Source: Sphaeroforma arctica JP610 | Taxonomy: Eukaryota | DNA: 64,000 bases | NCBI RefSeq assembly: GCF_001186125.1 | Contig: NW_014040269.1 | Span: 5,493 to 69,492 of the forward strand | Direction of reading: 5' to 3' | Part shown: positions 259 to 55,592 of the stretch, piece by piece | How positions within the stretch are numbered: position 1 is the stretch's first letter | How the letters are laid out: each line of letters starts with the position of its first letter | The notes under the pieces: generated by a model | The model's input: the letters and a program-made list of their open reading frames with translations, nothing else | Databases searched by the model: none | Told to the model about the DNA's origin: nothing | Position numbers and translations under genes: made by a program

Positions 259-656
259 CCCTAATACTAAGTGCAGGGCAGTAGACCTATGAATGTGGAC
301 AAGTGTCATAATTGTATGACCTGACCTCATTCAAATATCTGATATGTTAAAATGGAAAAAGTATTAAATAATAAAACCATTAAAAACAATTTTAGAAAAC
401 TTATGTTCCTCGTGCTATTACGAGCACATTTAGGAGACTTCAGTATTAAGAGTACATTTAGGAAACTTGAGTTCCTCGTACTATTAAGAGTACGTTTATA
501 ATTTGCGTACTGTTTAAGAGAACGTTTATAATTTGCGTACTGTTTAAGAGAACGTTTATAACAGAGTCTAATGTGGAGGCCCGGCTTATTGCACCCTAAT
601 ACTAGGTGCAGGGCAGTAGACCTATGAATGCGGACAAGTGTCATAATTGTATGACC
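259..656. repeat. 63-bp direct repeat (259-321 and 594-656)
   Basis: CCCTAATACTA(A/G)GTGCAGGGCAGTAGACCTATGAATG(T/C)GGACAAGTGTCATAATTGTATGACC occurs twice with 2 mismatches. Confidence 0.9.
304..593 (-). mobile_element. Solo LTR-like copy related to the 5' LTR of Gypsy element 1
   Basis: TG...CA termini (TGTCATAA...TTATTGCA). Shares AATAAAACCATT, AGTTCCTCG-ACTATTAAGAGTACGTTTA and AGTCTAATGTGGAGGCCCGGC with 10306-10517. Contains internal tandem expansions. Confidence 0.6.
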
Positions 657-1511
657 CGAAATAAGACAAGTGTCATATACCATACTAAACCAAGTTAAAT
701 AACAGTTGTTAAATTTAAAAAAAAACTACCCTAACTTTTTAATAAGAGTAGCGATGCATTGGTTGACCCAGAGGTACCTTAAAAAATCAATCTCATTGAT
801 AGATAGACAACTTAAATTCTTCATATTGACGAGTAATAAACATTCACTTAATCTCGTCTCGACCGGACTGTTGGTTCCAAATTATTTCATCTTGTACCAG
901 AATTGGGTCAATCTAGCCACACGTAAGCGTTATACAAGTCCATCCATACCTAACAGACCCTTCTGGCAATATAGCATGCCACTTTAATGGTTTATGGTGG
1001 AAAAAAAATCAACAAAAAAAATAAGCGTTTACGTTCAAAGTTTATCCTAAATATAGTCCTATGGGTTTACAAATAGGTACTTTTTTTTATTCATTTTGTC
1101 AGTTGTGAATAGTTTCAAATCGCCTTTTCATTAAAAAAAAAAAGTCAATTTCTCAGGTGCAAATTTGGAAAATTTTCATGGTCGATTTGCTCCCGATATA
1201 CTATAAAACGCTTAAAAAACAATTTTTTTGCGTTTACGTTTAGAGTTTATCGCATACAGGCAAACCGTATTGAGCTTAGCTGCAACTGGACTCGCAGATG
1301 CTCTGTCTCAGAATTTTTTTTTTTTGAATTTTTAGCTCCTTTATAATTTGAAAAAAAAAACATTTGTTAAAAAAAAAATACAAGTTTTTTTTGTAAATAA
1401 AACAACCCAAAGTAAAAACACAAATGAGACTGTGTACAAATTTAGAAGGATGTTTATGACAGTGTCCATTTTATATTTATTACGAAAGAGTTTGTCCGTC
1501 TAAAGACTTTA

Positions 1512-1954: not shown

Positions 1955-2499
1955 TTAACTCGAGTCCAGTTTTCTATAAATAGAATTAATAGTAGTACAA
2001 TGCACGTATCAACGGTTTTGAACGATATTCTTTTTTTTAAACATATTTTAAACTATTTTTTATTTTTTCTATTTATTTTAAAATAATGACATTTTTAAAA
2101 TTAGATATGTACAGTATTTTACTAAAAATATACCTTTTGTATGGCCGCCTTCTGTTCCATTTTCACTTTTTCGACTCTGTCTATTAGCTCTACTGCAATA
2201 AACCAATAGCATCGCCATCTCACCCACTGAATTTTAGATGGAGTTCGGGCCGTCCCGGAATTAATAAGTCTTCTATAGCGAAGTACGCGCCAAAAATTAG
2301 CACCGCCAACTTGTTCTATGAAATTAAACAGGGTGATTTTATGAATGAATTTTGAGGAAATTAACGTTTCTTGTACCACATGATGGTAGTAAATATGAAA
2401 ATGCTGTTACTTAAATTCAAAAGAGTAGGACAGGAGCGCGCTTTTTTTGTAGGGATATTAAGACGGACCTATAATTTTCGTTGTAGTATTAGCAGTTGC

Positions 2500-2784
2500 A
2501 TAAAATATACGTAAACTGCTCATTTGACCTCATAACGTTAGTAAAGCTCATACATACGTTCAATTTTTCTGGGCAAAGTACTCAAGTGAATATAACGTTA
2601 AAAAATAACTGAAATATTTCGGATTTGACCTCATACCGTTTGACCTCATAACGTTACGACATAAAATATATGTAAATGCTAATTCGACCTCATAAAGTTA
2701 GTAAAGCTTATACATTACGTTCAATCTTTCTGGGCAAAGTTCTAAAGTTACAATAGACGTTAAACAATAACTGAAATATTTCGG
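2500..2784. repeat. Imperfect tandem duplication, period about 160 bp
   Basis: CATAAAATATA...GACCTCATAA-GTTAGTAAAGCT...CTGGGCAAAGT...AACTGAAATATTTCGG at about 2500-2622 and 2660-2784. Confidence 0.8.
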
Positions 2785-2809
2785 TACTTTAAATATGTTT
2801 ACTTGTTAA

Positions 2810-3130
2810 CTTGCCTGGCTGGGCTCAGGCTTATTGATCCGCTCCCCCCTCCAGTTCCCAAATCGTACTACTTTTTCACGTTTACGAAATGATTTTAAAC
2901 GTAATTGCATTTTGCGCTATGAGACCTGGAGCCCCCCTCATCTCTCCCCTACTCAGGGGCTTAGGCTCAGGGCTAGACGGAAGCCTCATAGCGTAAACGT
3001 ACTACGTTTGCACGTTTACTAAATGCTTTTGAACGTAATTGCTAGGATTGACTTGCCTGGCCAGGCTCAGGCTTATTGATAATATAACCTAAGAAGCGGG
3101 GGGAGGGGCAGGCTTAGGCTTATTGATAAT
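2810..3130. repeat. Mosaic of short direct and inverted repeats (possible MITE remnant)
   Basis: CTTGCCTGGC--GGCTCAGGCTTATTGAT at 2810 and 3052. CGTACTAC...CACGTTTAC-AAATG-TTTT-AACGTAATTGC at 2864 and 2998. Confidence 0.55.
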
Positions 3131-3699
3131 AATGCTATAAATACATCGCGGTGCCCATTGCCTATATATAATCATCTCAGTACTGTTTTCGCAGAAGGAA
3201 TTTTATTTAGTGTTTCGTTGCTGCTCTATTAGAAACTACGGTATGTTTCGTTGGGGCGAATCCGAGAGACTCATAAAATTATATCTTTAGAAGAAGAAAA
3301 ATACTCATTATGTCCATAGTTATTGCATTTTTTTGTCTGAAGGAACGGAAGTTAAACCTTACCCGCCGGGCCTCCACATTAGACTTAGTTTTTCATAGAG
3401 CGACAACGAAACACTAAATAAAATCCCTTCGGCGAAAACAGTACTGAGAGGATTATATATAGGCAATGTCTCAGCCTCACAATCTCTCAGAGTATTGCTG
3501 TTTTCACAAGGTATACCTAACTTTACTAAAAAGCGTTTTTTTATTTCGAATTTAACTATACTTAGACTTAACCTTAGCGTTTGATTACTCTAAGACGTTA
3601 ATATCGCCTTGATAGACCGAATCTTACACATTTTAAAGTTAACAAAGATATTAATTACTTAGACTACCTATACGTATATGTAGATAACTACCACGAAAT

Positions 3700-6600
3700 A
3701 GGGTTTACGGGTTTTAGGTTTTTATCTTGATTATCGAAAGCATCTGAAGTCAACTGAGCGATTGTACCGGCTATAAAGCGTGTACGGTGGTATGTATATC
3801 CTCTCTTATCCGTTCTCCATATAATGTCTTTAAACTCAGAACGATTAAGAGGGGCATTAGAGTCGTGTCTTCTTGCGAGAATAATCTAAGTAGTCGGAAT
3901 ACAACTAGTGCCTATGTTTAAAGCACTGGAACCGTCGGGTGTATTAACGTCAGCTACAGAGATTATATATGGTCCTATCCATTTAGATGTTTATACAGTA
4001 GCATCGGAATTACGTTGACGGATGTTAACTCTGTCTCTAACCCGATACTCTGCTATCTTTTTGGTAGCGTTCCATTTATTTTGCCTTTTTAATAAGGAAA
4101 TATTGCGTGATTCTCGCAAGCAAGGATATACAACGTTATAAATACATTGTACCTTCTCTAACCATGGTAACTCATGGTGATTAGGTTCGTCCTTGTTAAA
4201 AGGTATTTTTAACTCACTATATCTGCCACGAAAATAGGGAGCGGATGTTGTACCTGTAACCGGATCAGCACACTCGTCCATCTGTGTTTGTACCCACTTA
4301 AGGTGGTACGGTCAATCATCTGCATCATCCGTTAATGCAGTACGTAAGAAGAACTTAAGTCTTCTATGGCGCGTTTCATTCGCGCCCTGTGTTTGCGGTT
4401 TATATGGTACACCCCTTTTATGGCATATGCCTGATACGAGTACTAACGATTCCATTCCGTCATCGCAGAACTCGCTACCGTCATCAGTGCACATTATACC
4501 TGGCCACCTGTGGTCAGCAAAGACTTGGCAGTATAATTCTGCCACGGTCTGCGTACTCTTGTCCTTTAAAGGATAGAGCAAGTTATACCATGACGCCACA
4601 TCAAAGAAGTGGCATACGTAACGATCGCCTGTGTGCTCGGACGTGGGCAAGTCAACCAGATCAATGATGACCCTGCGCCATGGAACATCTTCAGTCACAC
4701 TCTTAAGCGGTGCGAACCCATAGCGCTTAATCTGGTTGAGATCACAGTCTGTACATGACTGATATACTCTGTCAACAAAAGTTGCCAGCTTAGGGTGCGC
4801 GATCCCATTTCGCTTAGCATCTTTAAGTGCATATACTACGTTCTGGTGCTTCAGCTTTTGGTTTTGCGTCAGCCAAGCAAGAATATTTTCATCATTGTAC
4901 TCCTCCAGAATAAAGGTAGGGTGTTGAGAATCCACTTGCGTGGTCTCTAAGTCTGTAGTGTTTCCAGACTCCTATCCTTCTTTCGCATGAGTGTCATAAG
5001 TGCGCTCGTGTGCGTTTGATACACCTGACCTATTTAATAGTCGCATTATATGTGTATATGCTTCGGGATTATCTTTCATTAATTCCTTTAAAAATAGGGT
5101 TTGAAAGACTTCGGTCTTGGACTTTATGTTATTAAACAGAGTCCTAGCTAGAGACTGACGCTTCTTAACATTAGTGTCATTAGTAGATTGTATTTCTTGT
5201 GCACAGACTTCAAGTGCTGTGTTGCCTTTGAACTGCTTAACGCTCAATTTAGTAGAGAGTGGAATATCTGATTATTTGACCTTGTTAAGGAAGGTCTCAG
5301 AAGGGGTCCATTTGGTTGTTCCAATGGGACCTATACGACATATTATAGTATGTCTCCCGGGCGTCTTCTGGACGGCTCGGGTACCATGATATAGGAAAGT
5401 ATCTACTTCCCTATTTAAATATTTTGGCTCCCATTGTATCATGCTTATTAATGTATTGAGCCATGAATCTTTACTCCGTAATGGGCAACACAACGTGATG
5501 GTAGCTTTGTGTATATGAACATAATTTAGTATTTGGGCAATTAACTGCCATGGTGGATTAGCCCTCGCATTATGTTCGGAAAGGTCTAGTTCCAAGGCAT
5601 CTCCTAAAGGATGATTTAAAGTCCTGTAATTCTTAAGTTGTGCATTATGATGTGCAACAAACATGTCAACTGTATGTGGCCCAAATATCTTTTGAGCCAG
5701 TTCAAACCACCTGGGGTTACATTTCCAAGCAGTGGCTAGTAACTCACGTACGGATTTATTAAAGTCCGGTACAAAGCGTGATAACATATCCGGTAAATGG
5801 TTATGTATCCCTGGTAGATGTTTGATATCAAAATGAAACTTTGATATTGTATCCTGCCATCGGCTCAGTAATTGAGAGTCTGGCTTCATTTCCTTCATAT
5901 ATTGAAAGGACTTCTGATCACACATCAGCGTAAAAGCTGTTCCGTATAAGTAATCGCGGAAGTGTGCTAAAGCTGCTACTATGGCTAGTAGCTCATGCTT
6001 CACAGTTGAATAATTCAACTGTGATGCATTCATTGATCGGCTAAAGAATTGTATATACCTAGGTTTATTAACTATAACCTGGTATAGTACACCTCCGAGT
6101 GCTAAGTCTCATGCGTCCGTTGCTATTTCAAAAGGCACGCCATCGACTGGTCCTTGTACAACAGGGGCTTGTTGGACTGCGTGCTTGAGCGCTTTAAATG
6201 CGTCATCAAACTCTTTAGTCCACAAGTCTCCTAGTTTGCCTTTATGACATCTTAAGTGTCCAAAGGGTTTAAGATAATCAGCCAAGTGTGGTACTCCATC
6301 TGAAAAGAAGTTTACAAACCCACACATGCTGTTCACATCTCTTCCTGTTGTTGTTGTTCGCCAATCTAACAAGTGTTCCACCTTACCGGGGTCGATTTTA
6401 ATACCTTCCCCAGATATACGGTAGCCTAAGAGCTGTATTTCGCTCATGGCGAAGTGACATTTCTTCTCGTTAATCTTGGTTTTGTTCGTTGAGTCTCTTA
6501 AGGACTCGCCTGACTAATGTGGCATGTTCGCCCTTAGTCTTAGAAAAGATGACTATGTCATCTATATAGACTTGCACGCTAGGTATGTATGCAAGCATTT

Positions 6601-7575
6601 CCTCCATTACTTGTTGGAAGAATACTGGTAAGGAGTGCAACCTGAAAGGTGCACCTCTAAACCTGTATTGTTTACCTTTCCAGGTAAAACTAAAGTGCTT
6701 ACGATGGGGCTCATAAATTTACATTTGATGATACCCCTGTGTTAGGTCTATGGATATAAACACCGTAGCACCTTCCATTCGTCTCAGTAACTCGTTTATA
6801 CGAGGGATATGGATACTATGAGTAGGCAATAACTTATTTATTGGACTCATATCTAGACATACTCTGGCTTTCTTAAATGTTCCGTCAAAGTTGTGTTGAT
6901 CAACTGCCAATAATGCTAACTTAACTGGCGTTTGTTGGTAAGTGATTTCGATTACCCCATCGGATAACCATTCCTCAACTTGTTCTTTAACTACAGCTTC
7001 GTGTCTCCAAGAAACATAGTTTCTTGAAGGGCATTTGGGCTTAGTAAAGTCTACCTTGGTTGAGTCAAGGCTGACATATTCGTCGTTAAAACGGAATTTT
7101 GCCCAATCTGTGATCTTTATCTTCTTATTTACTAGAATCAGATCCATGATTTTGTCCGCAAAGTCAGTTATTAATGCCTTGACTGTGTCTGACGGGGGCT
7201 TATATGGTTTCAGGCAGTTATCGTCTGATTGATCCTTTAATGGATCTATGTTATTTGGTAACCCAGTTACGGTTATACCCAGAGTGAGTAAGTCACTCAT
7301 TCCGACTATTAAGTCGTACTTCTGTGATATCTTAACTATCACAGCTTGGGTAGTGATATATCTAGCATCGGCCAGGGAGATTTTAACATATGTGGCCATT
7401 GTATCACACTTAGAAGTTTTGTCATCTGCTAAGATTAGGTGAGTAGTTTGAGTTCGCCTTTCAATGTCTTTCATTAATGCAAAGCGGTCGGATATACATG
7501 AAATTTCTGAACCAGGATCAATCAATGCAAGGACTTTATTTCCATTGCAATATACAGGGATTATTACACGCTCGT
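3700..7575 (-). pseudogene. pol of Gypsy element 1
   Basis: ORF fragments 6719-7525 (PR/RT), 6109-6447 (RT/RH), 5272-6033 (RH plus MTase), 4312-4935 (INT core), 3991-4281. A degenerate chromo-like tail (FKDIIWRTDKRGYTYHRTRF...TSDAFDNQD) runs to about 3720. Confidence 0.9.
5330..5727 (-). CDS. Dam-type N6-adenine DNA methyltransferase domain within pol of element 1
   Basis: Uninterrupted and in frame with RNase H: WKCNPRWF...FGPHTVDMFVAHHNAQLKNY...GDALELDLS...ANPPWQLIAQIL...ATITLCCP...W. NPPW at 5548-5559. Confidence 0.85.
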
Positions 7576-9843
7576 CTAAAGAGTCGTTCTATTTCCTTTG
7601 TAACGATTGTACCTGAAAGTACTTTCACTCCAACTTAATGTCGGGCTTTTGTCACAAGACTTGGCGTGATAGCCATTGGTCTTCTCACACTTGTCACACT
7701 TAGTAAGAAAGTGTGTACATGTGGATGCATGTCTGCCATTCCAATAACCGTTAGGGGTCAATTGGTACATATCATACCCACACTATGCGTCGGCACATTT
7801 CTTAATCTCCTTAAATGGAGGTTCCTTGTCCTTCGCCTCCGCGCGTGCCCGTTTATTGGGCCGCGTTGATTGAGTGGAGTCGCGAGCACGTGTCTGGTTA
7901 GGACGCGTCTGATGAGGTTTCTCATATGACGTCTGGCGTGAGAGATATCCTTGATCAGTGAGCTCGCGCGGTTTCTTATGTACCGCCTTCCCCTTCGAGG
8001 CTACTCGCGTGTGCGGGAAAAAAGGTGGATACAGTATCAAAAAACTGTTCCCACGTAAGTCGGGATAGATGAAACTTTGTTTCATGTCCCTTGTCTCGAG
8101 CTTCAGTGGCGTATTTACGTCGCAACTCGGTGTACAGACTTTCACGGTCGTTGTTCCCTATGTTCTTACAGAAAACATGCATACCAGGAACTCGTACCAT
8201 CGCTGCGCATTGTCTTATCAAATTTCAGAATATAACTCTGAATAGGAGTATTCTCAACTGGTTCAGTTAAGATTGAACTCAATCCTGGACTTCGCATGTC
8301 CTTGCTTAATAAGAACGTAACCAACCAACACATAGCTGGCCAGTCACGACAAGTGTCGAGCTCATGCTGGTGTTGCTGCAGGATCAAATAACTTGTTCCT
8401 GTAGGGTCAAACGACTGCATTAAAGCAGAAATCCATTGCTGGGGAGCGATATCATTCGTCTCCAGCATGACCGTAAACGCATTAAGCGTACGGGTTAGCG
8501 TGTCGAGGTCATGGTTGTTTATAAACTCGACTTGCTTGCTGTTGGCATCCCAGTTCGACTTAAGTAGACTGATCTGTCCTTTGTACTTCTGGTTATCCCG
8601 GTGGTCTTGCCCACGTTGGGCCTGAAGTAGCTGATCGATGCGCTTCTGCTTGATCGCGATCATATTAACAAAATATGATACGTCATCAGCACGGTGCTCG
8701 GCATGGGCGATTTCCATCTTAATGGTGTAATCGTCGACCGACTTATTAAGTTCGGTCACCTCGTCAGAGTGAAAATCCTCTGCGGGCTGGTGTAATGCTG
8801 TGCGATCGATTAAATTCGACATCGTTAACACGTTTACGGGAGTGTTTATTACCCCTTGTAAAGTCTATGGTCGAGGCCTTTCGGTGCTCTGTTCCTTGGA
8901 TAGTAGTTGGTATTATAATCTTGAGTGATTCATGCGTCTGGATAACATATCCAGTCTTAACTGGTTTCCGACGATTGTCATCCCAGTTGGGTAAAGGTGG
9001 CGGAGTATTTTTACCTGCCTCTAGGTCTATAATACCCTCAAGGACGGGCGACTCGTGGCCGGGCGTTAGAACAGGCGAATAATTAGCCTGGAGTTCTGGT
9101 GGTAGTACCTCATAAGGTATAGATAAGCTGAGCACATCTGGCTCATCTGCCACAGGTGTAGCGCTCAGGCCTTTACGCTTTTCGGGCGTAATTGCCAGTC
9201 GACGTTCTGTTCACTTCTGTAAGGCTTCAGTAATGCCCGGAGAAACATGCTCGCGTAAGTGCTGTGTATGTTTTCCTGATCTATACATTCGATCTACATG
9301 TTCAACAGTCATGCCTTCCATAAAGGCGGCTAACTGATTCTTAAGATCAGTGTTTTCAGTAATTAACTTACCTATGCGCGTTGATTCAGTGGTCTCGGAC
9401 GTAGATTCGGGTTTGCCACTTGAGCTTGCCTCCTCTTCTGGTTCCGGTATAGGTACCTTCTGAGATTCGTCTTTGTCCCATATAATTGGGGACTTTTCTT
9501 TCTGAGTTTCGTCAGAAGAGTTGGTTGGGGCGTCTTGAGACGTATCGCTTGCCTCACTTCTTGGCTTCGTAAATGCAAGCTTTGAAGTTGAGGCAATAGT
9601 TGGCCCTCGGGCTCTATCTGTAGGAGTAGTTTTAATCGGAGTGGCTACATCCTCATCCGAGGCATTGTCTTGACTATTATTGTCGGAGACAAGTGCTTCG
9701 GCTACGGTGCGGTTAAACGCATCGGCAGCAGCTGCGGTTGCTTCTGCGGCAGCGGTAGCTGTTGCAGCGATAGCAACTTTTCTTTCCATCATTTTACGTT
9801 CGGCCTTGCGTTTCTTTGCAGGCGTATTGTCTTTCTTTGTCAT
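7576..9843 (-). pseudogene. gag-like region of Gypsy element 1
   Basis: Fragmented ORFs 9211-9843, 8764-9153, 8166-8831, 7783-8221 and 7576-7770 lie upstream of the protease. C-terminal Cys/His motifs (CDKCEKTNGYHAKSC). Confidence 0.7.
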
Positions 9844-10305
9844 AATCTTAACTTATGACATCAGTCTTATTCTCTTAAGGAATGACTGTGCTTAAGAAAA
9901 AATTCGTGGTAGTTATCTACCTTTACTTTTAAGTAGTCTAAATAATGAATACCTTTGCTAAATTTGAAATGTGAAGTTTCGGTCTATCAAGGCGATATTA
10001 ACGCCTTAGAGTAATTAAACGCTTAGGTTAAGTCTAAGTATAGTTGAATTCGAAATAAATAGACGAAATGAGGTATTAAAGTTAGGTATGCCTCGTGAAA
10101 ACCGCAATACTCTGAGGGATTGTGAGGCTGAGACATTGCCTATATATAATTCTCTTAGTACTTTTTTCGCCGAAGGGATTTTATTTAATGTTTCGTTGTC
10201 GCTCTATTAGAAACTACGGTATGTTTCGTTGGGGCGAATCCGAGAGACTCAAAAAATCCTATCTTTAGAAAAAAAGAAAAGAAGACTAACCAATAACTTG
10301 CCACT

Positions 10306-10517
10306 TGTCAAGAATTACCGACTTAGCCTTCATCAGACTGGCACATCTGGTTGGCTAAACGGAGGATAAACTAAGCAACGCTAATAGAATGCATTAATTA
10401 ATAAAACCATTTTGGAAACTTAAGTTCCTCGCACTATTAAGAGTACGTTTAGAGTTTACGTACTGCTTAAGAGTACGTTTATAACATTGAGTCTAATGTG
10501 GAGGCCCGGCTATTACA
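10306..10517 (-). repeat. 5' LTR of Gypsy element 1 with adjacent PBS-like site (10290-10303)
   Basis: Minus strand reads TGTAATAG...CTTGACA, a 2-nt spacer, then TGGCAAGTTATTGG. Homologous to 304-593. Confidence 0.7.
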
Positions 10518-11572
10518 CTGATAGTACGATCAAATGGATTGAGAGGCTGAAGAATGATCGTTTCTGTAAGGAGCAGACTGGTCAACCAAATCTACATATA
10601 CTTCCTGCTTTATTTGAATGGCTAAACAAAGACAACACACTCGGCGACATGTCTATGTGGAATCAGTAAATGCGACAGAAATGTATACAGATCGGTATTC
10701 TCGAGGACTGTGCACTAATTGATAGTATGGACGACTCAGATGATGTCCTATTACGATCAGGGGAAAGAATAGAAGTAAGTTATCGACATGGCATCGGTTT
10801 ATAATATTCATATGTGTTTTCCGAAAGTCCCGCAATAACCCGGGGAGTATAGGGTGATATTTTGACGTAACTGGGGATATAGCAAAGTATGTATATATTA
10901 CATTCGTCATAGCAATCAGTTATGTATTCTAACATAGACTGCCTTTTCCTACAACCAAGCAAACAGCCAAATATACGCCTGAGTGCACTCGTATTGCACT
11001 CCATTTGAACAATGATGTGGGAATACTTATTGGTGATGCTGCAGAGTGTAGGATGGAGAAAGCGGGCTGTGACGTGACTGCACAAAATGTGTGTTATAAC
11101 GATTACAAATCATTTCCAACGTTGAAGTTTATCGTTATATTCGAGGGTGGAATATACATCGTAGACATTGCAAAATCATTCACTGGATCTTCTACCGATA
11201 CTGGTATGCACAACTCAGAGAACTATGGACTGCGTATGGTAAATTGTGATGGCAGTACAAAGATTGCATATATGTTCGATAAGGGGTCGATAGATCGCTA
11301 CGAGCTGGATAAACTTGGCATATGCGTGTGTACACCTAGAAAAAATGATTGGTCAATATGCGTTTAGTGAGGAACGGTCACAGGCAGACCGTGATATAGC
11401 GCGCGAGAGAATTACTATCGAACGCAACATGGAGGAGTTACGCAATTATGCCGGTTTCGGGGGTCTGAATAAAACATTGTCTGAGATAGATATAGCTGAC
11501 CATGAAGCGCAGGTGGCACGAGGATTGGTGAACTTGGATGCACCAATCACAGATTGGTGGATGCCAAAATAA
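10518..11572 (+). pseudogene. ISL2EU/Harbinger-type DDE transposase (DDE_Tnp_4-like), 5' part interrupted by the LTR
   Basis: LIGDAAECRMEK...QNVCYNDYKSFPTLKFIV...FTGSSTD...YMFDKG...CTP, then (frameshift) QYAFSEE...DIARERITIERNMEELRNY. Upstream HTH-like region (KLSTWHRFIIF...). Confidence 0.8.
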
Positions 11573-11699
11573 GAGCAGGGTGAAGACTTAGTGGATTCGG
11601 ATATAACATTTGATGGAATAGATTTTGATGTTTCAGACGAAAGTGATAACGACTTAGATGTAGTTAAATGTTAAATAAAGCTTTTATTGATAATTTATT

Positions 11700-14264
11700 T
11701 ATGCTACTTGAGCTATTATTTCGTTATCAGGAAGCCAGTCTAGAACCTGGTCTACCTTTAATCCTCGTACTGCCTTCTATGCACTAAAGCTAGCTAACTT
11801 CAGGGTTCTAAATCCCATAAACAACTTGTGTTCCTCTTCGTCCATGTCTTCTCTAAGTACCTTCATATGCGACGAATGTAGAGGATTCCACCTAGACCTG
11901 TTAATAGCGCATGAGAAGTCCTTGCTCTGATCGACAAATTCTCTTGCCAGTGTTATGGCATGTTGATTTGGATTGAATTTTCTGGATTTGGGTCTTTTGG
12001 ACCAACTACACTGACCATCAGTTGATCCCGGGTCCCCGATTTCTTGGATACGTTCCAGCACAGCTCGTATGTGCACGCAATTCGAATGATTGTGACATGG
12101 GCTCACTTTAAGAATATTTGTTTTTCCTTCTCCTTCATCAGTGGCAACACGTTTCTGTTTAACTAATGGCAATAAACAGTTCGCATCCTCAATGTTGTCC
12201 ATAAACCACGACTTTGTTGATTTATCCCTATTGATTATCGCTACGCATATAACGCTCATCTTGTCGTGCCGGTAGCTGCGCGAAACCTTGCTCCTTATGT
12301 ACATTAACATGCGATGCTTCCTCTGTGGATCGTCGTTCAGCTTCACATAGCCAGTTTCCAAGTCGACGATGAAACGATGCTCTTGTTCCTTAGTTTGTCG
12401 GCGTGTATAAGAAGCTTTACCTTCTATTACTAACAACTACCTTCTCGATGACATCTTGATTGTATGCATTAAACGTAATATCATTGCATGTATCACGCAG
12501 ATCTCGGTCGGCAGTCAGCCTAGTTGCGAGTAAAGCAGTAGGTACCTCCGGAATAGGCATTCTTTTAAGTGTTGTACTTGCTGTGTGCAAGTTGGTCGTT
12601 AGGTAATCCACCATCAACGATTTGGATCCGAATCGCTGAGGTATTACAATATCTCTTTGTATAGCATACTGGTGAAGTGCAGGCTTCAGCATGCAAGAAA
12701 ATGATGCTATATCGCTCTCTACGGATGTAGTAGACCACAATCGGTGCCAATCCAATACGCGGACTCCACACGCACTCGCACGGAGGAAAACGAATGTCAA
12801 ATATTCCAAGCCGGTAACTTTTTTGATCATACCAGTCTAATGTATAATGATCAAAAAATAAACACTCTTCCATAACACGGTCGGCTACACCGAGCCTATT
12901 TCTCGTCTTGCTGGAGTCAGTATACTGTATAGCTGATCTATCTCATATCCACTAGTTATTACATCTTCACCCCATATATCTATTAGGCCGTCAGCTACGT
13001 ACACACAGTGATTGACCATACAAGAACTGGTTGAAAAAATCAGAAACTTTGTTATATTCAAGTCCCTATATATCTCGTTCACCCTTTCAGGTGCTTTTCA
13101 CTTATACATGAACGCCGATTCGACAGTGAGTGGCCCTTCTACGTTTGCAAGCCAAGGGCAGAATGTCTGTACTGTCACACTAGTACGAATTCTATAATCG
13201 CTCTGAATTAGTAAAGCAGCCATGGGCACTGTATTGTCAAACCCGTATACAATTACAGCACGCAAGAACTGCATCTGATAAACCGTTAGGAATTTTAATT
13301 CCGACTCGTCGCTCTGTAACTCAGCCTTGTCGAATAGACTATTAACTCTTGCCCTCTTGCAATTACGTCTGTAAAACACATTGGCGATACCACTTATCTA
13401 TTTGTTGTCAAGTATAATACGATCGCACCCAATAACTATATAGTCTGCATCGTAAGCCAATATAAAATCTATTTGTCCCTGTAGCTGTAGCGCGAGCAGC
13501 TGTTGCTCTGCCTCCATCGGCGATACTATGTAGTCAATATCTTTATCAATGCACAAGAGCATCAGCATCTCCGCTACTTCAATATCAAAGAACGCTACAA
13601 CATCCTTACACGCTTTGGTGACGTCTAACCCTGGTGTATTTCTCTTGTTCTGAACGAATGTATGTATTGAAATATTAATCAGTATAATTATTCGAAGTAC
13701 ACACACACTACTACAAATTTACGAACAAAAAAAAATATGCATCAACTGCATGCATCAGACATGCATCAGATCAATATACAGCATTTTAACACGCTTTGGA
13801 GACGTCAACACCAGGATCATGTCTATATTGTTCAGAACAAATGTATTAAAAAGTATTCAGTATAGTTACGCGAGGCACACACACATTATTATAAACTTAC
13901 TAGCAATTTTTTTTGCATGCGTCAACTACATACAACACACCTTAATATATTCTCAGATTGGAGCCATCGCCTTTTCCCTGTTTTCAGCACGCTTGTCATT
14001 CGCTAGCTTACCTTTCACCCTATATCCATCAAATACTATCATCAGTCTTAATGTTCCTTGGCCATATGACTGCAATCGTTGGAAAGTTGCCCCGTACACC
14101 AAGTAATAAAGGTTGATAATTTTGGTCGAGAACAACTTCTGTAGCGTGTGTGTGCATGAAACTATGTGCAATATAGCTCGCGTCTATGCCTAAAACACCA
14201 ACCAAGTGTGACAGTGGTGTCTTCACTAATAATGGGCGGTTCAACTCAAGCAGGCCTGCGCCAT
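11700..14264 (-). pseudogene. Transposon accessory gene: XPG/FEN1/Exo1-family nuclease plus SAP-like and SWIM-like domains
   Basis: ATG at 14264. GLLELNRPLL...LGIDASYIAH; IVFDGYRVKGKLANDKRAENRE; putative GT-AG intron 13650-13940; IDYIVSPMEAEQQLLAL...GQIDFILAYDADYIVIG; LIQSDY; SAP-like LKPALHQYAIQRDI...SKSLMVDYL; SWIM-like C..CVHIRAVL...STDGQCSW..P. Confidence 0.78.
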
Positions 14265-14490
14265 TGCTTGTGGTTACTTATATGCGCGTACAAATGAACT
14301 ACTTATGTGTGCACATATACACATAAATATATTTTTCTTATCAGTATGTTACAGTCAATATTAACTATCAAATTATTGGCGCGCACTTCGCTATAGAATA
14401 ATTTTTAATTCCGGGACGGCTCAGACGGGCCAGACCCTGTTTATTAATTCAGTGGGTGAAGTGCTATATTTTCATCTCTTTTGTCTAATA

Positions 14491-15112
14491 CGACACCCGT
14501 CACTATAAAATTATTAACGCCCGAGCCCTAGTATTCCTATGTATATGCCTATATGGTGAATTTGTTTTGAATTTATGTTCTAAAAATACAATTGCGGTTA
14601 ATGAAATCACAGAATAGGACAAAATCCCTTGGACCTGAAATTTACAACAGAAGGGGACAAAACCAAATTCAACATTGTTGAACTACAGTGCAATTTGTGC
14701 AAACCAAACGATTATATTTTACATAGCCCTCTTTTCTTCTCTTGTGTTTTATGTATATTATAAGAAGGCTGTGGGCTATGAAACGAGGTGTTTTTTAATA
14801 ATATTCAGAACTTCAGAAGTATGGATCCACGAATTCATGCTCACACAGGTTTAACAGAACATTGGCTCTCTCTAGCTAGTCTGAGGCGTTGTTTTGTATT
14901 TCAGGTGACATGTGTAGATTATGTACCGAAAACTGATACTTGAGTGTTGTAATAACTTGTATCGGTAATTTTTTTTGCGGTGTACATACTGAATAGTTCG
15001 GTACTTGTGGCCATACGTGGGCACATAAATATCAACCCTACCTTTGCGAACGGACCGGATGCGGTTTTGGACACGGGCTCGGGTGATAATAATTTTATAG
15101 TGACAGGTGTCG
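14491..15112. mobile_element. Tc1/mariner-type MITE
   Basis: 38-bp TIRs CGACACCCGTCACTATAAAATTATTAACGCCCGAGCCC / GGGCTCGGGTGATAATAATTTTATAGTGACAGGTGTCG, flanked by TA on both sides. Confidence 0.8.
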
Positions 15113-15149
15113 TATAGGCTAGGTCATGTATGTACATCTTTTGAATGTC

Positions 15150-15480
15150 CCTTTTCCCCCGCACAGGGGGGTATAAGAGTGCTGTGATGGGGGTGAGCCT
15201 ATGAGAGTGTGAGGTATATTTATTTTAAAATTTGCATAGTATTTTTAGATAAGCTCGAAATTTGAAAATTTGAAAATTTGTTGATCAATAAAAAGTGTGT
15301 TCAAAGAAGTGTGATTCTATTGTGGCTTCGAAAACCCTGTCAGTTGGCAACAATTGTTTAATGTTTCTGATTTTCTGCGACAGATATTTTCAATTTTTTC
15401 CCCGCAGGGGTATAAGGATACACTCATTACATTGTGATGGGTGTGGGACTGTGGGGTATATGTTCAAATTTGCATAGTTG
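15150..15480. repeat. Degenerate repeat, unit about 240 bp, whose sub-block recurs at 20750-20882
   Basis: TTTTCCCC-GCA-GGGGTATAAG...AAATTTGCATAGT at about 15152 and 15397. AAGCTCGAA...GTCAGTTGGCAA...TTTCTGATTTT-TGCGACA at about 15250 and 20750. Confidence 0.65.
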
Positions 15481-15601
15481 TAAAGCCAACTGGTCGTGAC
15501 ACGAAAGTACAAGGGTTTGAGAAAACTAAGATTTATTTGCCTTTGGTTGGTCCCAAGCTCTACAGTTGAAAAGTGAGCTTGGGAGAACCAAACCTTCGTA
15601 T

Positions 15602-18600
15602 TGATATCGGAGCAAACGCAAAGCCCGTTGGATTCGTCAAGATAGTTGGCCCGCGCAAATATCCAACTGCCACGTTTGCGATTTTTCCAAGTTAATACCA
15701 TTATAGGTACACAACAGCAGTAGGTCGTGGGTTAAGTATACCTGTTGGGGGACTCATAGTACCAAGTGACTGCCAAAAAGAAATAGGAATAGGGAAATAT
15801 TTGTCCGGTGGACGGGGAACACTAGATATAAGGCCAGCAATAGTATAAGGCCATGAGGAGGCATGCCAAGTAACTGGTGCTCATTTTTTAGAAATGTGTC
15901 CGGCGCATGTGGAATAACAATAGGCATAGCTATTAGCGAATGGAAGGAGAAAGGAAGCTATGAACATGAAGCCCAATGTGGCAAGATAGCGATAGCCTTA
16001 CAGTAGCGAGTAGCTAGGAAACGGCGGAAGAACTGGTGGTAAATGGGCCACGGTGGGTTAACTAATACGAAAGAACCCGTAAGGTTGAATTATTCAGCTC
16101 GGCAACGTTCGGTACCCCCCAATGCTGCACAATAACGGGGAAGATGATGACATGTGGAACTCGCATAGAGATCAACATCAGACACCACCCATTTCTTGAA
16201 GAAGAGGGAAATCCATGCGGGATTGATCATCAACTCACCTGAATATGCATGAGGGTGAGGAGATAGAGTTGCAACTAGCGAAGGATGCGGCGGAATCTCA
16301 TCCACCGGGCCCCAAGTAACATGTTTATGAACAAAAAGCATTCTGGGGTCCAATTGCGCAGGCTGGCGGGAAAGCCTATCTGCTACGTAATTCCATTTAC
16401 CGGGTATGTGACGGATATCCACGCGATGGTGGCGGATTTTCTCCACGAGACGCTTAAGGCGATCACCACGAGCAGTCTTAAGGAAAGAGAAATTAACATG
16501 GAAGAAAGTAAGCACATTAAGGTGATCCGTCCAGACAGTTAGGGCATGATAATTGGCAGTAATAGTCATCTCCTCCTTATCAACAGCATAAGCAATAGCC
16601 ATAATTTATAGGTCACAAATATGATAACGACGTTGGGCCGCATTCAATTTGGTACCTCGGTATGAGAATGGAAAAAGACGGTCGATGCCATTAATACAAA
16701 AACCGTCAACACGAGGGTCAACCACCTGAGATTAATCAGTAACCACGGTGGAATGGCAAGAGTATGTACTTGCAGGAGCCAGGAAAAGTTTCTCCCGCTC
16801 AGAAAGTGTTTCTTGCTGGGTTTACCTGACTCGTTTATGGGCCGGGAGTGTAAAATCAGGGGTCGTAGGGAAGGGGAAGGAACACTTCTGAGACGAAAGG
16901 CTACCGAGAGGTCGTTGCTGTGGCAGTGGGGTAGGGGTACGTTGGGCAGCAAGGCGGCGCTTTTGGCGGGATAGGCTTTTGTCTAAGGCAGCAGCAGCAG
17001 TATTGAGTCGCTTAGAACTCAAGGGTTGAACCCAATCCTTTGGGAAAGGTGCAGGCAACTCACCCTGACGAGGAATCCAGACAAAAAGTCCACAACCAAT
17101 GCCAATGGGGCATGCGTCAACAAACATGTGGAGATAATGGGCAGGGTCAGGGGAAACTAACATAATGGTACCTTGAATAGCCTCGTTAATCATCGTATTC
17201 GCAGCATGACAATCTGCAGAATAATGAAAACGTGTATTCTTAGACGTTAAGTCCGTCAATGGGCCATCATAATGGCCAAATTGGGGATATATTGAGACCA
17301 CCAATTGAGAGTGGCACAAAACACTTCGACTTTGTCCTTGGTTTTTGGTTGGGGCATAGAAACAATATCATTGGCGGTATTCTGTAATTGATGTATAATT
17401 ATGGATAGTTTGGCGACCATAAAATATTTTGGTACTTCCCTAAGGAGCATTGAAAGACACTTGGAAGCCCCCGTAAACGGATTTTCATTTTAACACAAAT
17501 ACGCGCATACGCAAGCTTATCATTCCAGTGCTGAGAAATTGCCTCGCGGCTATAGTGGGCCTTGGCGCCGTCATCGACAAAGTGCTTGAGGGCTTGGCGG
17601 AGGGCAGCAAATAAACCATCCACAAAGGCTTGCAAATCAACGGTCATCATTTTCACCCCGAAGACTCCATTGACAGGTTGCCAAACATCACCTGTAGACG
17701 TTATCCAGATAAGATACCGACGAGAGCGCTTTGTGCAACGCAATTGGTTAAAGCTGCATGCCATATACATTGTAGAAACAATGTCACCCCGCCGGATATG
17801 ATCTAAACATTCCTGCCCAGTAAGGCATGGGGTAGGAAACAACGTCAAAATTTTCATTGTTAACCTTATAATTTTGGCAATAGCGAACATCCTTGATAAT
17901 CTTAGGCTTCACACGGGGGTTCTTTCGTGCCAAAACAGCACTAGACATATAGGGTGAGAAATAATCTCCAGGTTCTATGACACCGCGAGCGTAGTCACGG
18001 GCGCATATCTCTTGTTCTCATTGTATATACTGTGGGTTCTTGAGCTTGTATATGATACGCTTAGGCCTGGCATTTGCCTTGATTTTTATATCGACCTCAT
18101 AATCACGGATAGTATTGTGATTGGATTCGTCGTAACGAATGCTATTGAACAAATCTTTGAACTCTTTGACCTGTTGTAGTGTTTTGTTCAAATAAAGAGC
18201 AGTAGCATTAACTCCCATCCCAGTTGTATTCCTCAAGGGTACCCGGAGAATCACGGCAACGGCGTTTGAATTCAACAACAGCAGCCTCATCAATAAGAGC
18301 TGGTACCAAGAGGCCAATATAAGGGTTAGACGGAGACGCCAAAGAAGATGGAGACGCAGACTGAATGACAGGTGCACGTTCTGAACTGAAGGCCAAATGT
18401 GGGTTGTTCGGTAGATTTTTTCCAGTAGGGTTTAGGGTTTTTGGTGCGCAAGAGAATATATCTCTGAGTAATGAAGCTTAATAAAAAGTCGCATCCATTA
18501 GGAATTTCATCAGAAAGGTAGAAAACAGAGTCCTTTGTTTCAAAATAACTCGTTTGGGAAGCATTAGTAAATATCTGTATAAGCACAGAGATATCAGTTT

Positions 18601-20743
18601 GTTGAGTAGGGGGTTGAAGCGTAACACCTCCGAACGGCTTCATTAATACATGCTCGATGTTCTGGATTTTCAGACCCTCAGATATTGCCAACTGTTTATT
18701 GACGAGATTTGGTATAGCGCTATCATTCACATAGTATAACACACAAGAAGAGACGAAGTAAGCAGGAACCACCGGGCCCACGCAATATCAATCGGCGCGG
18801 ATATTTAGGGTACCAGAGAAATTGTTATATGGGCGGGCATTGGGCAACTTGGTGACCAGGTTTGTAGCAGTTGTAGCACACATTCTCACCGTCAGCGTTT
18901 TGCCTGGAGTAACAGGGTTAGCTGTAGGTGTGCGGGAGCGTGCGGGGCGCACATCTTGGGACTGGGAGCGACCATGATTATCATTGAACGCAGGTGTAGT
19001 AGACTGGGAGCGGGAACCAACGCCAGAATCATTGCGTGAAGAGCTGGAATCATAATCGTCAGAACGGCCGTGTCGAGGACGAGAAATACCGGCACGGTCG
19101 CCATGAGAGTCAGAGTCACGACGGTTGCCACGGCCATTAACATACCCTCGGTCGCGACTGTCATGATCGACACGATCACGGTTGCGATCTGCACGATGGG
19201 TGTCATCACCACGGCGAGTGTTACCGCCAGCATTGTTCCGACCAGCACGACCTTGATCACGGGTAGTGGGGCGTCCTCGGTCTCTCTCACGAAGGCGTTT
19301 AATTGCTCGTGGTTCCGGAGGGTAATTGGAATACTTTCGAACAAACGATTCCTCCAGGATTGCAACACCGATAGAGCACCCTGCCTGCTGGTTATGAAAC
19401 CCAATGAAGAAAGCATTTTCCAAATTCTCCAACCAAATCTGGAAGAATTCAGCGATACGCTGATGAAAATTATCCAGGTAACGTTCAATCAGAGTGGAAT
19501 CGTGGCGTAGCACGTGGTAAAGGCGATCCATGTAAAAAGGGTCACTGGTCAACGGCAGGAGTAAAGCGTGGACAGAACGACGGTCCTGGCTAGCACCCTT
19601 ATGGAGATTCTCCAACAACATGTCGTTGATAATGAACTCATTTTGAGTAGACAGCTTGGGGGCAGTACGCTTCCATGCTTTCGTATAAGGGGTCACGATG
19701 GTAGAGCTCGGGGCGCTCAGGGACCCATGTTTTGAGGGATTCCTCGTACACGAAACCGTCGCCCCAGTCCTTAATCTCACCATTCTCATCGAAGGCCCTC
19801 AGCAGCACGTAACATCCAGCGGCTGATTTAGGAGGAATATTATCCTTCTCGTCATCAGATTCGTCTTCAGTTTCACGCTGTTGACGCTGTTCATTCTCCT
19901 TAGCTTTGACAGCCTGCTCCTAAGCACGCTGAGCTGCCCGCTCAACTTTCTGTTCGTCCGTAAGGTTGGTTTCCTCATCAACTTGGGCATTCTTATCTTC
20001 AATACTCCTGACCAATTCTTTAATTTTAGCCTGGGCACGTAAGAGTTCAACACGTAATTCCAAGGCAGACATCTGTGGGGCCTGTGTCTCCAAGTAAGCC
20101 TTAGCTCTCAGGGGTACACGGTTGGTTAATCCTTGGTGCACGTAAGCACCTTGGATTTCTTCCAGATCACGGTAAGCGAGCATATGAATTCACGCAGCCA
20201 ACAGATCCGGTAATAAGGGAGCCCCTTATCGGGTCCTTTGAGGGAAGCCGCGATTTAGAAAATACGGGATTCCTGCCCCATCTTGAAGAATAGGTGGCGC
20301 ATAGGTCCAAATTCCCGCAACACGTAAGCAATCAATTAAATCGCCGTTGTGGAAGGGGTAATGAACAGGTCAATCAAATGCCAATAGGAAGTGTCCAAAT
20401 ACTTCATTAAGGCATTGATCTTGGCACTCCGTCCGGAAGAAGTAGACGTATCATCCAAGCTACGGAAAGGTTTCTGTACAATCTAATTTTGAATTTTGCG
20501 TACCCAAGGCACAATAGGGCGATCGAGGTCGAAACGCAGCAGATAAGGCTCGTCATTGTCTTTCTGGGCATTGCCCTTGCCGTTGTTCTTTGGCATTGTT
20601 GATAAGAAAGCACACTCTACGTAACAGGAGAGCAAACGCAAAGCCCGTTGGATTGGTCAAGGCTGTTGGCCCGCGCAAATATCCAACTGCCACGTTGGCG
20701 GGGTTTCTAAGGTGTCACTGGTTTAGGACCACCAGGTTTTACA
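15602..20743 (-). mobile_element. Gypsy-like LTR retrotransposon 2 (degenerate): gag-PR-RT-RH-Dam MTase, no integrase visible
   Basis: About 80-bp direct repeat at 15610-15692 and 20630-20711. Zinc knuckle CYNCYKPGHQVAQC (about 18838-18880), RT HFVDDG, RNase H MFVDACPIGIGCGL, WTDH and RHIPGKWNYVADRLSR. Confidence 0.82.
15850..16230 (-). pseudogene. Dam-type adenine methyltransferase domain of element 2
   Basis: INPAWISLFF...DVDLYASSTCHHLPRY...* FNLTGSFVLVNPPWPIYHQFF...AIAILPHW...* ...PIVIPHAPDTFL, in one frame through two stops. NPPW at 16048-16059. Confidence 0.8.
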
Positions 20744-20899
20744 TAGTGGACAAGCTCGAAGATTGAACATATGACCAATGAAAAGTGCGTTTAAGAAATG
20801 TGATTTTATTGGCTGCGAAAAACCCGGTCAGTTGGCAATTGTATAGCGTTTCTGATTTTTTGCGACACAAATTTCAATTTTTGTGTTTTGTGTTCAGCT

Positions 20900-32430: not shown

Positions 32431-33439
32431 ATGAAATGCTTTCCAGGGGCACGACTGCCAACTTCATCTATGCCTATTTTCTGTTTCACGATTCCGATTA
32501 CGCCAACACAATCACGGAGACGGAACGTCAGGCACTTACCTTTGCTTTCCGAACTGTACATAAGCGGTTGCGATTCGTTTCCAGTATGATCTCAATTGTG
32601 CTTATGTGAAATGGACCCGCCTCTGTAGCCGTTATAGCCATGTGCGCACCAGTGATTTTACGCCGGTCTATGAGACTTTCATGGCCTCCAAGGCATCCGA
32701 AGTTCCCAACTATTCGTCTACGCTGAGCCAAGTCAAACGTGCCTACCGGTTTGCCTCTGATGCCTCCTACAGGGCTGAATAGCTCCTGGTTTGGGAGCTA
32801 AAGCATATCTCCACTATGCTGCTGGATGCGGCGCCTGGTTGAGCTATGTACACCAGCGGAGTGCGATTCTGACTACTCTTTCCTGATTCCTTTTGAGACG
32901 GGTGTTTTTGCCTTTTCAAATTCTCAAACAGTCCCCCGGCCAAGTTGATGGTCTTATTCCTGTGTGGACGGCCCTCATGCGGGAGTTCGGACCGGCTGAA
33001 TTTTCGAGCCATAACCACGAGTCTCCCCGGGGCTGTCTTATAAGGGTGGACAGAATGGCCCTAGGCTCTGCACCCAGGCGCATGCACCTAGACCCTCGGT
33101 CCTAAATCACCGGCTCATCAGCACATGGACCACCATTTATTGATGAGCCTGTCTGAACTTTAGTCTGTAAATTAAATAATAGTTCGATAATGCACTTCAA
33201 CCTTGAAGTATCTCGTCTGTACAGTGAAACTTTTAATAAACCTTTTGCTGTTTAGAAGTTCTGTGTCATCTGTGTAGCAGCTAAAACACAAGAGAGTGTT
33301 TTTCTGGTCTCTTGAAAAGTTGAAATGTCACGAAAATAAAATTAGAAATAAATATAATAATTTGTACATAAATACCAACATAGCCTTCCATACTCGCTTC
33401 TACATTTCTCTTTTGTATAAGAGATGCAGCTTCGTCAGT

Positions 33440-33964
33440 ATGTTGCGTCCTCTAAGTAGGTCTGAAATTGATGAGATCGACGATACTACCAACGATATCA
33501 TTGGGCGCTCGCGGGCCTTGCTCAATATACATGGTCTAGTAGCGAACCATCCGGCGCTTTTAAAAGCGTACTGGCCCCTGAGGGAACACGTCGTTAACTC
33601 CAACAGCCTGCCACCGAGATGCCATGAACTTCTCATCCTGCGGATTGCGTTTCGAATGGATTGTGCGTACGAGTGGGAGCATCATGTTATTCGAGGGAAG
33701 AAGGTGGGAATCACGCAGCAAGAATTAGATGAAATACGGAAGATAGACGGCAGCTGGCGTTGTACGACGGATGAACTAATGGTTATGTGCGCTGATGAGT
33801 TGTTTGATAAAACTGCCCTAGGAAAAGAGACGACAGAGACTCTGAATAGTTACGGAAAAAAGGGAATCCTCGATGCTATCATGACCGTTAATATATATCG
33901 CACTCTCGCCAATATGCTACTTACTTTTGAAGTGAACGCAGATGATTTAGCTTTAGAGCATTAA
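33440..33964 (+). CDS. Carboxymuconolactone decarboxylase/AhpD-like (CMD family) protein, 174 aa, intronless
   Basis: Intact ORF from ATG 33440: LNIHGLVANHPALLKAYWPL...LPPRCHELLILRIA...CAYEWEHHV...ILDAIMTVNIY, matching the CMD-family ExxILR/YEWxHH signature. Confidence 0.85.
   Translation: MLRPLSRSEIDEIDDTTNDIIGRSRALLNIHGLVANHPALLKAYWPLREHVVNSNSLPPRCHELLILRIAFRMDCAYEWEHHVIRGKKVGITQQELDEIRKIDGSWRCTTDELMVMCADELFDKTALGKETTETLNSYGKKGILDAIMTVNIYRTLANMLLTFEVNADDLALEH

Positions 33965-34526: not shown

Positions 34527-55592
<21,066 letters not shown>

What the first reader, a model, noticed from the sequence alone, without database searches (positions are those of the whole stretch)
10518..14264. 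ISL2EU-like transposon whose partner gene is an Exo1/XPG nuclease-SAP-SWIM fusion rather than YqaJ
Seen: a DDE_Tnp_4-type transposase (+) converges tail-to-tail with a spliced gene carrying XPG-N/XPG-I motifs (GIDAS, IVFDG, SPMEAEQQL, YDADY), then SAP-like and SWIM-like segments. No YqaJ domain follows. Both genes lie inside one inverted-repeat pair. Known: ISL2EU elements pair their transposase with a YqaJ (lambda-type) 5'-3' exonuclease, and Harbingers with a Myb/SANT protein. Inference: non-orthologous replacement by a different 5'-3' nuclease fold, implying that end resection matters for this group. This may be an undescribed subfamily.
Basis: partly seen in the sequence, partly recalled or inferred. 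Interest (0 to 1): 0.8.

Follow-up and report, generated by a model that had tools for sequence, protein, structure and literature searches.

The report
Dead transposon carrying EXO1-like nuclease gene
This is a broken copy of a two-gene jumping element whose cut-and-paste enzyme travels with its own EXO1-like DNA nuclease; a distant relative fuses both into one protein, so the nuclease likely helps the element move, a pairing I did not find in the papers searched.

Summary
The gene pair is real, but this copy is dead. A PHIS-type transposase remnant (10518-11674, +; DDE spacing met) converges on an XPG/EXO1-like gene (14264-11699, -) with a SWIM-like module and no YqaJ. Both carry stops and frameshifts, and a retroelement cuts off the transposase 5' end.

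The pairing is not chance. Sequencing contigs hold at least two more copies, 77-86% identical, one colinear across both genes. A sister copy keeps the XPG-side and SWIM-side frames in one frame. A 1580-aa metagenome protein joins XPG-N, XPG-I, the SWIM-like module, THAP and DDE_Tnp_4 in one ORF and aligns along both window genes.

Weak points: the enclosing inverted repeat (2208-2302 / 14368-14465) spans about 8 kb of other DNA. SAP, SWIM, splicing and the AT target duplication are unconfirmed, and no trees were possible.

Likely role (inferred): trimming the 5' strand at element ends, as TnsA does in Tn7. The closest named relatives are ichthyosporean proteins. This scan noted the pairing before in algae and diatoms. 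Verdict: new variant of the ISL2EU-like kind.

The parts
2208..2302 (+). Probable left terminal inverted repeat; outer end uncertain, preceded by AT
   Evidence: BLASTN E 1.4e-11 to 14371-14420; 75 identities in 91 aligned; shuffle control. Belonging to this copy is inferred; no THAP trace in 2210-3400.
3365..10517 (-). Nested retroelement (protease-RT-RNase H-integrase order) with high-copy terminal repeats; cuts off the transposase 5' end
   Evidence: Pfam protease, RT_RNaseH and rve; repeat map; repeat ends at 10517 with diverse flanks in contigs.
10518..11674 (+). 5'-truncated, pseudogenised PHIS/ISL2EU-like DDE transposase with an acidic tail
   Evidence: DDE_Tnp_4 weak hits; DDE spacing; 96 of 326 pairs identical to P0009 1228-1580, score 242 against a shuffle maximum of 50; stops at 10667 and 11570 are sense codons in sister contigs.
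11699..14264 (-). Pseudogenised XPG/EXO1-like nuclease - SAP-like - SWIM-like gene
   Evidence: 197 of 724 pairs identical to P0009 5-802, score 227.5 against a shuffle maximum of 49.5; ATG at 14264 and stop at 11699-11701.
13956..14256 (-). XPG-N part (GIDAS, IVFDG), frameshifted
   Evidence: Aligns with the Pfam XPG_N region of P0009; no Pfam hit of its own.
13650..13940 (-). Putative intron, overlapping a 180-nt tandem duplication (13596-13728 / 13777-13906)
   Evidence: GT and AG ends in frame; duplication. Not shown by RNA.
13199..13538 (-). XPG-I region and H3TH-like QSDY motif
   Evidence: Pfam XPG_I E 6e-9; aligns to human EXO1 137-187. The H3TH label is recalled.
12600..12692 (-). SAP-like segment (unconfirmed)
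   Evidence: No Pfam hit. The matching P0009 segment hits Rho_N (E 0.014) and SAP (E 0.094); 26 of 1000 shuffles reach the window-P0009 score.
11990..12300 (-). SWIM-like module (C..C-x-C-x-H, then STDGxCxW)
   Evidence: Conserved in relatives; no Pfam hit; Atlas lead of only 0.84 to a SWIM cluster.
11699..11990 (-). Family-specific C-terminal module (RGLK/RxD motif) in place of YqaJ
   Evidence: Shared with P0003, P0004, P0007, P0008 and P0009.
14368..14465 (-). Probable right terminal inverted repeat, followed by AT
   Evidence: A contig in run X7 matches 14376-14425 and goes on with letters like both arms (table 7).

Best explanation
This is a dead copy of a low-copy, two-gene PHIS (ISL2EU-like) DNA transposon whose own second gene encodes an XPG/EXO1-like nuclease, which likely works beside the transposase to cut or trim the 5' (non-transferred) strand at the element ends. 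Shown: both genes, their decay, their linkage in another copy, and a one-ORF fusion in a distant relative (about 0.9 that the nuclease belongs to the element). Inferred: the DDE enzyme nicks and joins the 3' ends; the SAP-like and SWIM-like modules would hold the nuclease on DNA and on the transposase; the nuclease would remove the 5' flank or flap, giving cut-and-paste instead of a cointegrate, as TnsA does for TnsB in Tn7; YqaJ would fill the same role in animal ISL2EU (about 0.5 for this role).
For: A colinear second copy sits on one 4731-nt contig in runs of two studies, with piece spacings of 848 and 1447 against 846 and 1435 in the window and 77-85% identity. Further pieces about 86% identical (919, 483 and 1185 nt) come from at least one more copy; the 483-nt piece spans both stop codons. 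The 1185-nt piece has 17 extra bases at 12421-12423, its only indels in 12084-12488, which puts the XPG-side and SWIM-side frames in one frame. P0009 has XPG_N, XPG_I, THAP and DDE_Tnp_4 in one protein, and L001 shows residues 644-1580 as one open frame. P0009 aligns along both window genes far above shuffles. The four acidic positions aligned to EXO1 150, 152, 171 and 173 stay acidic, and motifs for the other three are present in both proteins (numbering recalled). Five of the 6 listed changes shared by both sister contigs in the DDE core are synonymous (small, selected sample). Four Sphaeroforma arctica proteins and one Abeoforma protein carry parts of the SWIM-like module or its tail at 35-55% identity. 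TnsA cleaves transposon 5' ends, and uncleaved 5' ends give cointegrates (bioRxiv 10.1101/2022.08.05.502904, passages).
Against: There is no biochemical or RNA evidence for the role. The second copy is matched to the middle of the nuclease gene but not, in the rows shown, to its catalytic XPG part (22 rows not shown). The fusion rests on one protein, and its XPG half was seen only as a protein record. Termini and target duplication are not fixed: the arms start AG rather than the usual GG, and the flanks read A-AT and AT-A rather than A-AT and AT-T (against PMC4482050). Spy elements, sister to ISL2EU, mostly have one ORF (PMC4122938, passages), so a related transposase can apparently work without a partner nuclease. 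The neighbours of the Sphaeroforma and Abeoforma hits could not be read.
Confidence: 0.5

Rival explanations
1. The nuclease belongs to the element but acts after excision: it would resect the broken donor ends 5' to 3' so that homologous recombination refills the empty site from the sister chromatid, raising copy number.
For: The closest solved relative is EXO1, a resection enzyme (established knowledge), and YqaJ/lambda exonucleases also resect 5' to 3' (recalled). The linkage evidence fits this equally well.
Against: The host presumably has its own EXO1 (not checked, no genome held). Fusion to the transposase fits a role at the element ends at least as well. Copy number here is low.
Confidence: 0.27
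2. The second protein is needed mainly as a DNA-binding or scaffolding partner, like the Myb/SANT protein of Harbinger; the nuclease activity is accessory, for example clearing excised or aborted intermediates.
For: The SWIM-like module gave the clearest family-specific hits. Kolobok lineages swap several unrelated accessory enzymes (PMC9587614, passages).
Against: The acidic active-site positions are kept in two proteins only 27% identical.
Confidence: 0.15
3. A chance neighbourhood: a host EXO1 pseudogene or a captured passenger lies beside an unrelated transposase fragment in a repeat-rich region.
For: The region is full of nested repeats, and the left inverted-repeat arm is 8 kb away with no THAP trace next to it.
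Against: The colinear second copy, the single-frame sister copy, the one-ORF fusion with homology along both genes, and several diverged paralogues in one named genome.
Confidence: 0.05

Closest known systems
ISL2EU group of the PHIS superfamily (Han et al. 2015, PMC4482050; Han et al. 2014, PMC4122938)
   Same: DDE_Tnp_4-type transposase with the PHIS spacing; THAP before the DDE domain in the relative P0009; two genes; inverted repeats; possible AT duplication; second gene encodes a 5' nuclease.
   Different: The partner is an XPG/EXO1-like nuclease with a SWIM-like module, not YqaJ. The 25 families in the paper are all from animals; Table S2 names YqaJ, and the supplements searched hold XPG 0 times. 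One relative fuses both genes.
PIF/Harbinger, Nuwa and Pangu groups (PMC4482050)
   Same: Same transposase superfamily; two-gene layout.
   Different: No Myb/SANT partner here (Pangu's second ORF has no known motif in the paper); 3-bp target duplications not seen.
Kolobok lineages with swapped accessory enzymes (KolobokD, E, P, H; PMC9587614)
   Same: [quoted passage not shown]
   Different: Different transposase superfamily; no XPG nuclease in that paper (0 occurrences).
Tn7 TnsA + TnsB (bioRxiv 10.1101/2022.08.05.502904, passages)
   Same: Functional analogy only: a separate nuclease handles the 5' strand for a DDE enzyme.
   Different: Bacterial, different nuclease fold, needs TnsC/TniQ; no homology claimed or tested.
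Host EXO1 (Rad2/XPG family)
   Same: XPG-N/XPG-I core with acidic active-site positions kept; best PDB hit.
   Different: Only about 50 residues align by phmmer (E 0.007); carries SAP-like, SWIM-like and family-specific modules; multi-copy and tied to a transposase.

Membership tests
PHIS superfamily | DDE core spacing D(19-29)K(29)D(18-40)D(11-19)P(18-28)R(3)E (PMC4122938) | tested here: met
   Window 23/29/26 with DKG-16-P, 24, 3 (one frameshift bridged with X); P0009 22/29/39 with DKG-16-P, 23, 3.
ISL2EU | Second ORF with a YqaJ exonuclease domain | tested here: not met
   No YqaJ hit in the window gene or in P0009; the gene ends about 100 codons after the SWIM-like motif; an XPG domain is present instead.
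ISL2EU | THAP (and HTH) at the transposase N-terminus | tested here: inconclusive
   The window copy is cut off at 10517; no THAP trace in 2210-3400. P0009 has THAP at E 7e-4, under the cut-off. No HTH_Tnp_4 hit.
ISL2EU | 2-bp AT target duplication in A|AT|T | tested here: inconclusive
   AT lies outside both arms if the ends are 2208 and 14465, but the right flank is AT-A, the ends are not fixed by other copies, and the left arm may be from another copy.
ISL2EU | TIRs of 6-259 bp, usually starting GG | tested here: inconclusive
   An imperfect repeat of about 95 bp exists; it appears to start AG.
ISL2EU | Transposase falls in the ISL2EU clade of a DDE tree | not testable with these tools
   No ISL2EU, Spy, Nuwa or Pangu reference sequences could be fetched (blank; one search gave one bacterial transposase).
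PIF/Harbinger, Nuwa | Myb/SANT partner gene | tested here: not met
   The partner gene is XPG-type along its length; no Myb/SANT Pfam hit.
Rad2/XPG nuclease family | XPG-N and XPG-I domains with acidic active-site residues | tested here: met
   XPG_I above cut-off in the window; XPG_N above cut-off in the aligned relative P0009; acidic positions kept.
EXO1 subfamily | Groups with EXO1 rather than FEN1, GEN1 or XPG in a tree | tested here: inconclusive
   Only EXO1 entries were hit in the PDB, weakly; no tree was built.
SWIM zinc finger | CxC-Xn-CxH metal ligands / Pfam PF04434 | tested here: inconclusive
   Three Cys and one His are kept in the window, P0005 and P0009; no Pfam hit; Atlas 0.84 is a lead only. 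Consensus recalled.
SAP domain | Pfam PF02037 helix-extension-helix | tested here: inconclusive
   Window segment: no hit. P0009 segment: SAP E 0.094 and Rho_N E 0.014, under the cut-offs.

The most novel reading that the evidence does not exclude
ISL2EU-like elements are two-enzyme transposases, the eukaryotic counterpart of Tn7 TnsA+TnsB: the DDE enzyme handles 3' ends and an obligatory 5' nuclease docks through the SWIM-like module. The XPG/EXO1 type, seen in unicellular relatives of animals and apparently in diatoms and green algae, is the older form, animal YqaJ is the replacement, and P0009 is a natural single-chain version ready for testing.
Probability: 0.33. Interest if true: 0.82.

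Novelty: new variant of a known kind. Interest (0 to 1): 0.6.

Why it matters
The job of the second gene in ISL2EU transposons is not explained in the parts of the papers I read. Two unrelated 5' nuclease folds in the same slot, plus a natural fusion to the transposase, point to a needed 5'-strand processing step and make that directly testable with one protein. It also extends ISL2EU-like elements beyond animals and warns that some 'EXO1' or hypothetical genes in protist annotations are transposon genes. This particular copy is dead and would not itself be the test subject.

Tried and rejected
No whole genome is held, so copy counts, empty sites and host EXO1 could not be checked. Word-index protein searches with the SWIM-like frame and with the X-read nuclease frame gave 0 hits of 266 and 4684 candidates; P0009 1-790 gave 1 of 7998. 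Locus scans found no relatives in viral contigs or prokaryote genomes (0 of 45 stretches); the metagenome scan confirmed 1 of 61 stretches, the P0009 locus itself. Plasmids: none for the window transposase and one weak bacterial transposase for P0009; phages: none. Two of the 9 representative hits (P0006, P0010) were dropped as unrelated by their Pfam content. No RNA holder was listed, so splicing and expression stay open. Fold models were poor (pLDDT 32 and 49); fold searches gave no clear match and listed no SWIM structure, and a profile search of the PDB was blank. The 14488-15115 inverted repeat was rejected as the element's ends, since it encloses neither gene. A target duplication or left junction for the nested retroelement was not found. 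L001's downstream flank does not resemble the window's repeat. One search was an uninformative comparison. Earlier-scan look-ups by place and sequence were blank.

Full report
SETTING. The window is repeat-rich eukaryotic DNA; no whole genome is held. The closest named proteins are from Sphaeroforma arctica and Abeoforma whisleri, so an ichthyosporean host is likely. That is an inference from protein hits; that these are unicellular relatives of animals is recalled.

TRANSPOSASE. Two + frames hit DDE_Tnp_4 weakly, at profile positions 13-62 and 100-158. With one frameshift bridged by X, the core fits the PHIS spacing given in PMC4122938 (passages): 23, 29, 26, then DKG-16-P, 24 and 3. The gene ends at 11672-11674. 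Its 5' part is missing: a repeat with contig depth thousands of times the local depth ends at 10517 with diverse flanks. It borders a protease-RT-RNase H-integrase element on the minus strand. A sister contig matches from exactly 10518 and has 262 further bases upstream, so the cut is specific to this copy. Two of the four stops (10667, 11570) are sense codons in sister contigs.

NUCLEASE GENE. It runs from 14264 to 11699 on the minus strand and ends 24 nt from the transposase stop. XPG_I scores E 6e-9. All 5 PDB sequences hit are human EXO1, best E 0.007 over 51 residues, with positions 150, 152, 171 and 173 acidic. XPG_N, SAP, SWIM and YqaJ have no Pfam hit in the window. A 291-nt in-frame GT-AG intron at 13940-13650 is plausible and overlaps a 180-nt duplication, but no RNA shows it. 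The gene has frameshifts and stops outside that intron. After the SWIM-like motif only about 100 codons remain, and they form a module shared with relatives rather than YqaJ.

INVERTED REPEAT. Nothing near the given coordinates encloses both genes. A pair at 2208-2302 / 14368-14465 does (E 1.4e-11; 75 identities in 91 aligned; score 95 against a maximum of 40 in 200 shuffles). AT lies outside both arms, which fits the ISL2EU duplication, but the flank and the first bases depart from the pattern in PMC4482050. No THAP trace lies next to the left arm (score 28 against a shuffle mean of 34). I put about 0.6 on the left arm belonging to this copy.

OTHER COPIES IN THE SAME ORGANISM. Twenty of 24 listed runs hold the stretch or part of it; I laid 6 of them. 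One 4731-nt contig in X5 and X7 (two studies) matches 10535-10593, 11381-11635, 12426-12467, 12547-12592 and 12816-12876 in order. Its spacings are 848 and 1447 against 846 and 1435, and identity is 77-85%. It bridges the transposase and the middle of the nuclease gene; a match to the catalytic XPG part is not among the rows shown. Pieces of 919, 483 and 1185 nt at about 86% come from at least one more copy. The 483-nt piece spans both stop codons. The 1185-nt piece (X11 only, a possible source run) has 17 extra bases at 12421-12423 and no other indel in 12084-12488, which places the XPG-side and SWIM-side frames in one frame. Contig depths are about equal to the window copy's and the divergence is too high for alleles, so this is an old, low-copy family.

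RELATIVES ELSEWHERE. A full HMMER scan with the SWIM-like frame gave 9 hits among 1.84 billion proteins. Seven are credible: four S. arctica proteins, one Abeoforma protein and two unnamed metagenome proteins; two were dropped as unrelated. P0009 (1580 aa, E 4.6e-4) carries XPG_N (above cut-off), XPG_I and THAP (below cut-off) and DDE_Tnp_4 (E 2e-14) in one chain. Contig L001 (58% GC in the ORF) encodes residues 644-1580 as one open frame. A frameshift-aware alignment runs P0009 5-802 along the whole window nuclease gene (197 of 724 identical; score 227.5, maximum of 15 shuffles 49.5) and P0009 1228-1580 along the transposase (96 of 326; score 242, maximum of 30 shuffles 50). So the two window genes match the two ends of one natural protein. 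By Atlas features, P0009 1-790 is nearest to an XPG cluster commonest in diatoms (0.93, 111 members) and one commonest in green algae (0.91, 55 members); this is a lead, with no genomic context. Earlier notes of this scan report the same pairing in algae and diatoms (15 findings in at least 4 genomes, 8 shown); I could not check their loci.

MECHANISM. Shown: linkage, fusion and kept acidic residues. Inferred: function. DDE transposases join 3' ends and must deal with the 5' strand. In Tn7, TnsA cuts it, and uncut 5' ends give cointegrates (bioRxiv 10.1101/2022.08.05.502904, passages). EXO1-family enzymes are 5' exo/flap nucleases (established knowledge), and animal ISL2EU elements carry a YqaJ exonuclease in the same slot (PMC4482050). 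My best reading (0.5) is that the nuclease removes the 5' flank or flap at the element ends. Rivals are donor-site resection to favour refill by recombination (0.27), a mainly scaffolding role (0.15) and chance (0.05). Against an obligatory role, Spy elements, sister to ISL2EU, mostly have one ORF. That animal YqaJ proteins also carry a SWIM module is recalled and untested; a search for it gave 4 papers, none on this topic by title. The direction of the nuclease swap is open.

LITERATURE. Seen: PMC4482050, parts 1-2 of 4 of the main text and term searches of its 3 supplements (YqaJ 13, XPG 0, SWIM 0; 18 of 25 rows of Table S2); passages of PMC4122938, PMC9179366, PMC12730594, PMC9587614 and the bioRxiv preprint. 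Searches combining XPG, EXO1 or SWIM with transposon terms gave 0, 1, 0 and 2 papers, none on this pairing by title. A broad search listed only DNA-repair and algal papers in its top 30 of 2495. ISL2EU appears in 46 papers, 40 listed, of which I opened five. Sphaeroforma with Harbinger gave 0. Repbase, subscription journals, the PMC12730594 supplement and bioRxiv supplements were not seen and could already describe such families.

VERDICT. It fails the YqaJ criterion, so I do not file it as a canonical ISL2EU; it is built like one, with a different nuclease. New variant of a known kind, interest 0.6.

Noticed in passing
window 3365-10517: A retroelement in protease-RT-RNase H-integrase order is flanked by inverted, not direct, copies of a very high-copy repeat (3365-3697 against 9903-10510); further pieces of the repeat lie at 383-594 and 3156-3301. 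It may be a rearranged 3' LTR or a separate insertion.
   Followed up: partly
window 14488-15115: A 628-bp MITE-like element with 41-nt inverted ends (93% complementary) and high contig depth.
   Followed up: partly
window 16090-19800: A second decayed minus-strand retroelement with a weak RNase H-like hit, lying between two related repeat pieces (15282-15691 and 20630-20882).
   Followed up: no
window 2499-3130: Short tandem and dispersed repeats (2499-2622 / 2660-2784; 2806-2908 / 2995-3080) between the left inverted-repeat arm and the retroelement; origin unknown.
   Followed up: partly
L001 3-2816: The 3' part of a single ORF joining the SWIM-like module, one Pfam-detected THAP domain and a second THAP-like Cys/His stretch seen by eye, and a DDE transposase (P0009); host unknown, 58% GC.
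   Followed up: yes
window 33278-33961 (+) and 52543-53205 (-): Probable host genes: a carboxymuconolactone-decarboxylase-family ORF (E 1e-9) and a WD40 ORF.
   Followed up: no
window 259-679: An 86-nt direct repeat (259-344 / 594-679) flanks a 250-nt piece ending like the high-copy repeat, resembling an unusually long target duplication.
   Followed up: no
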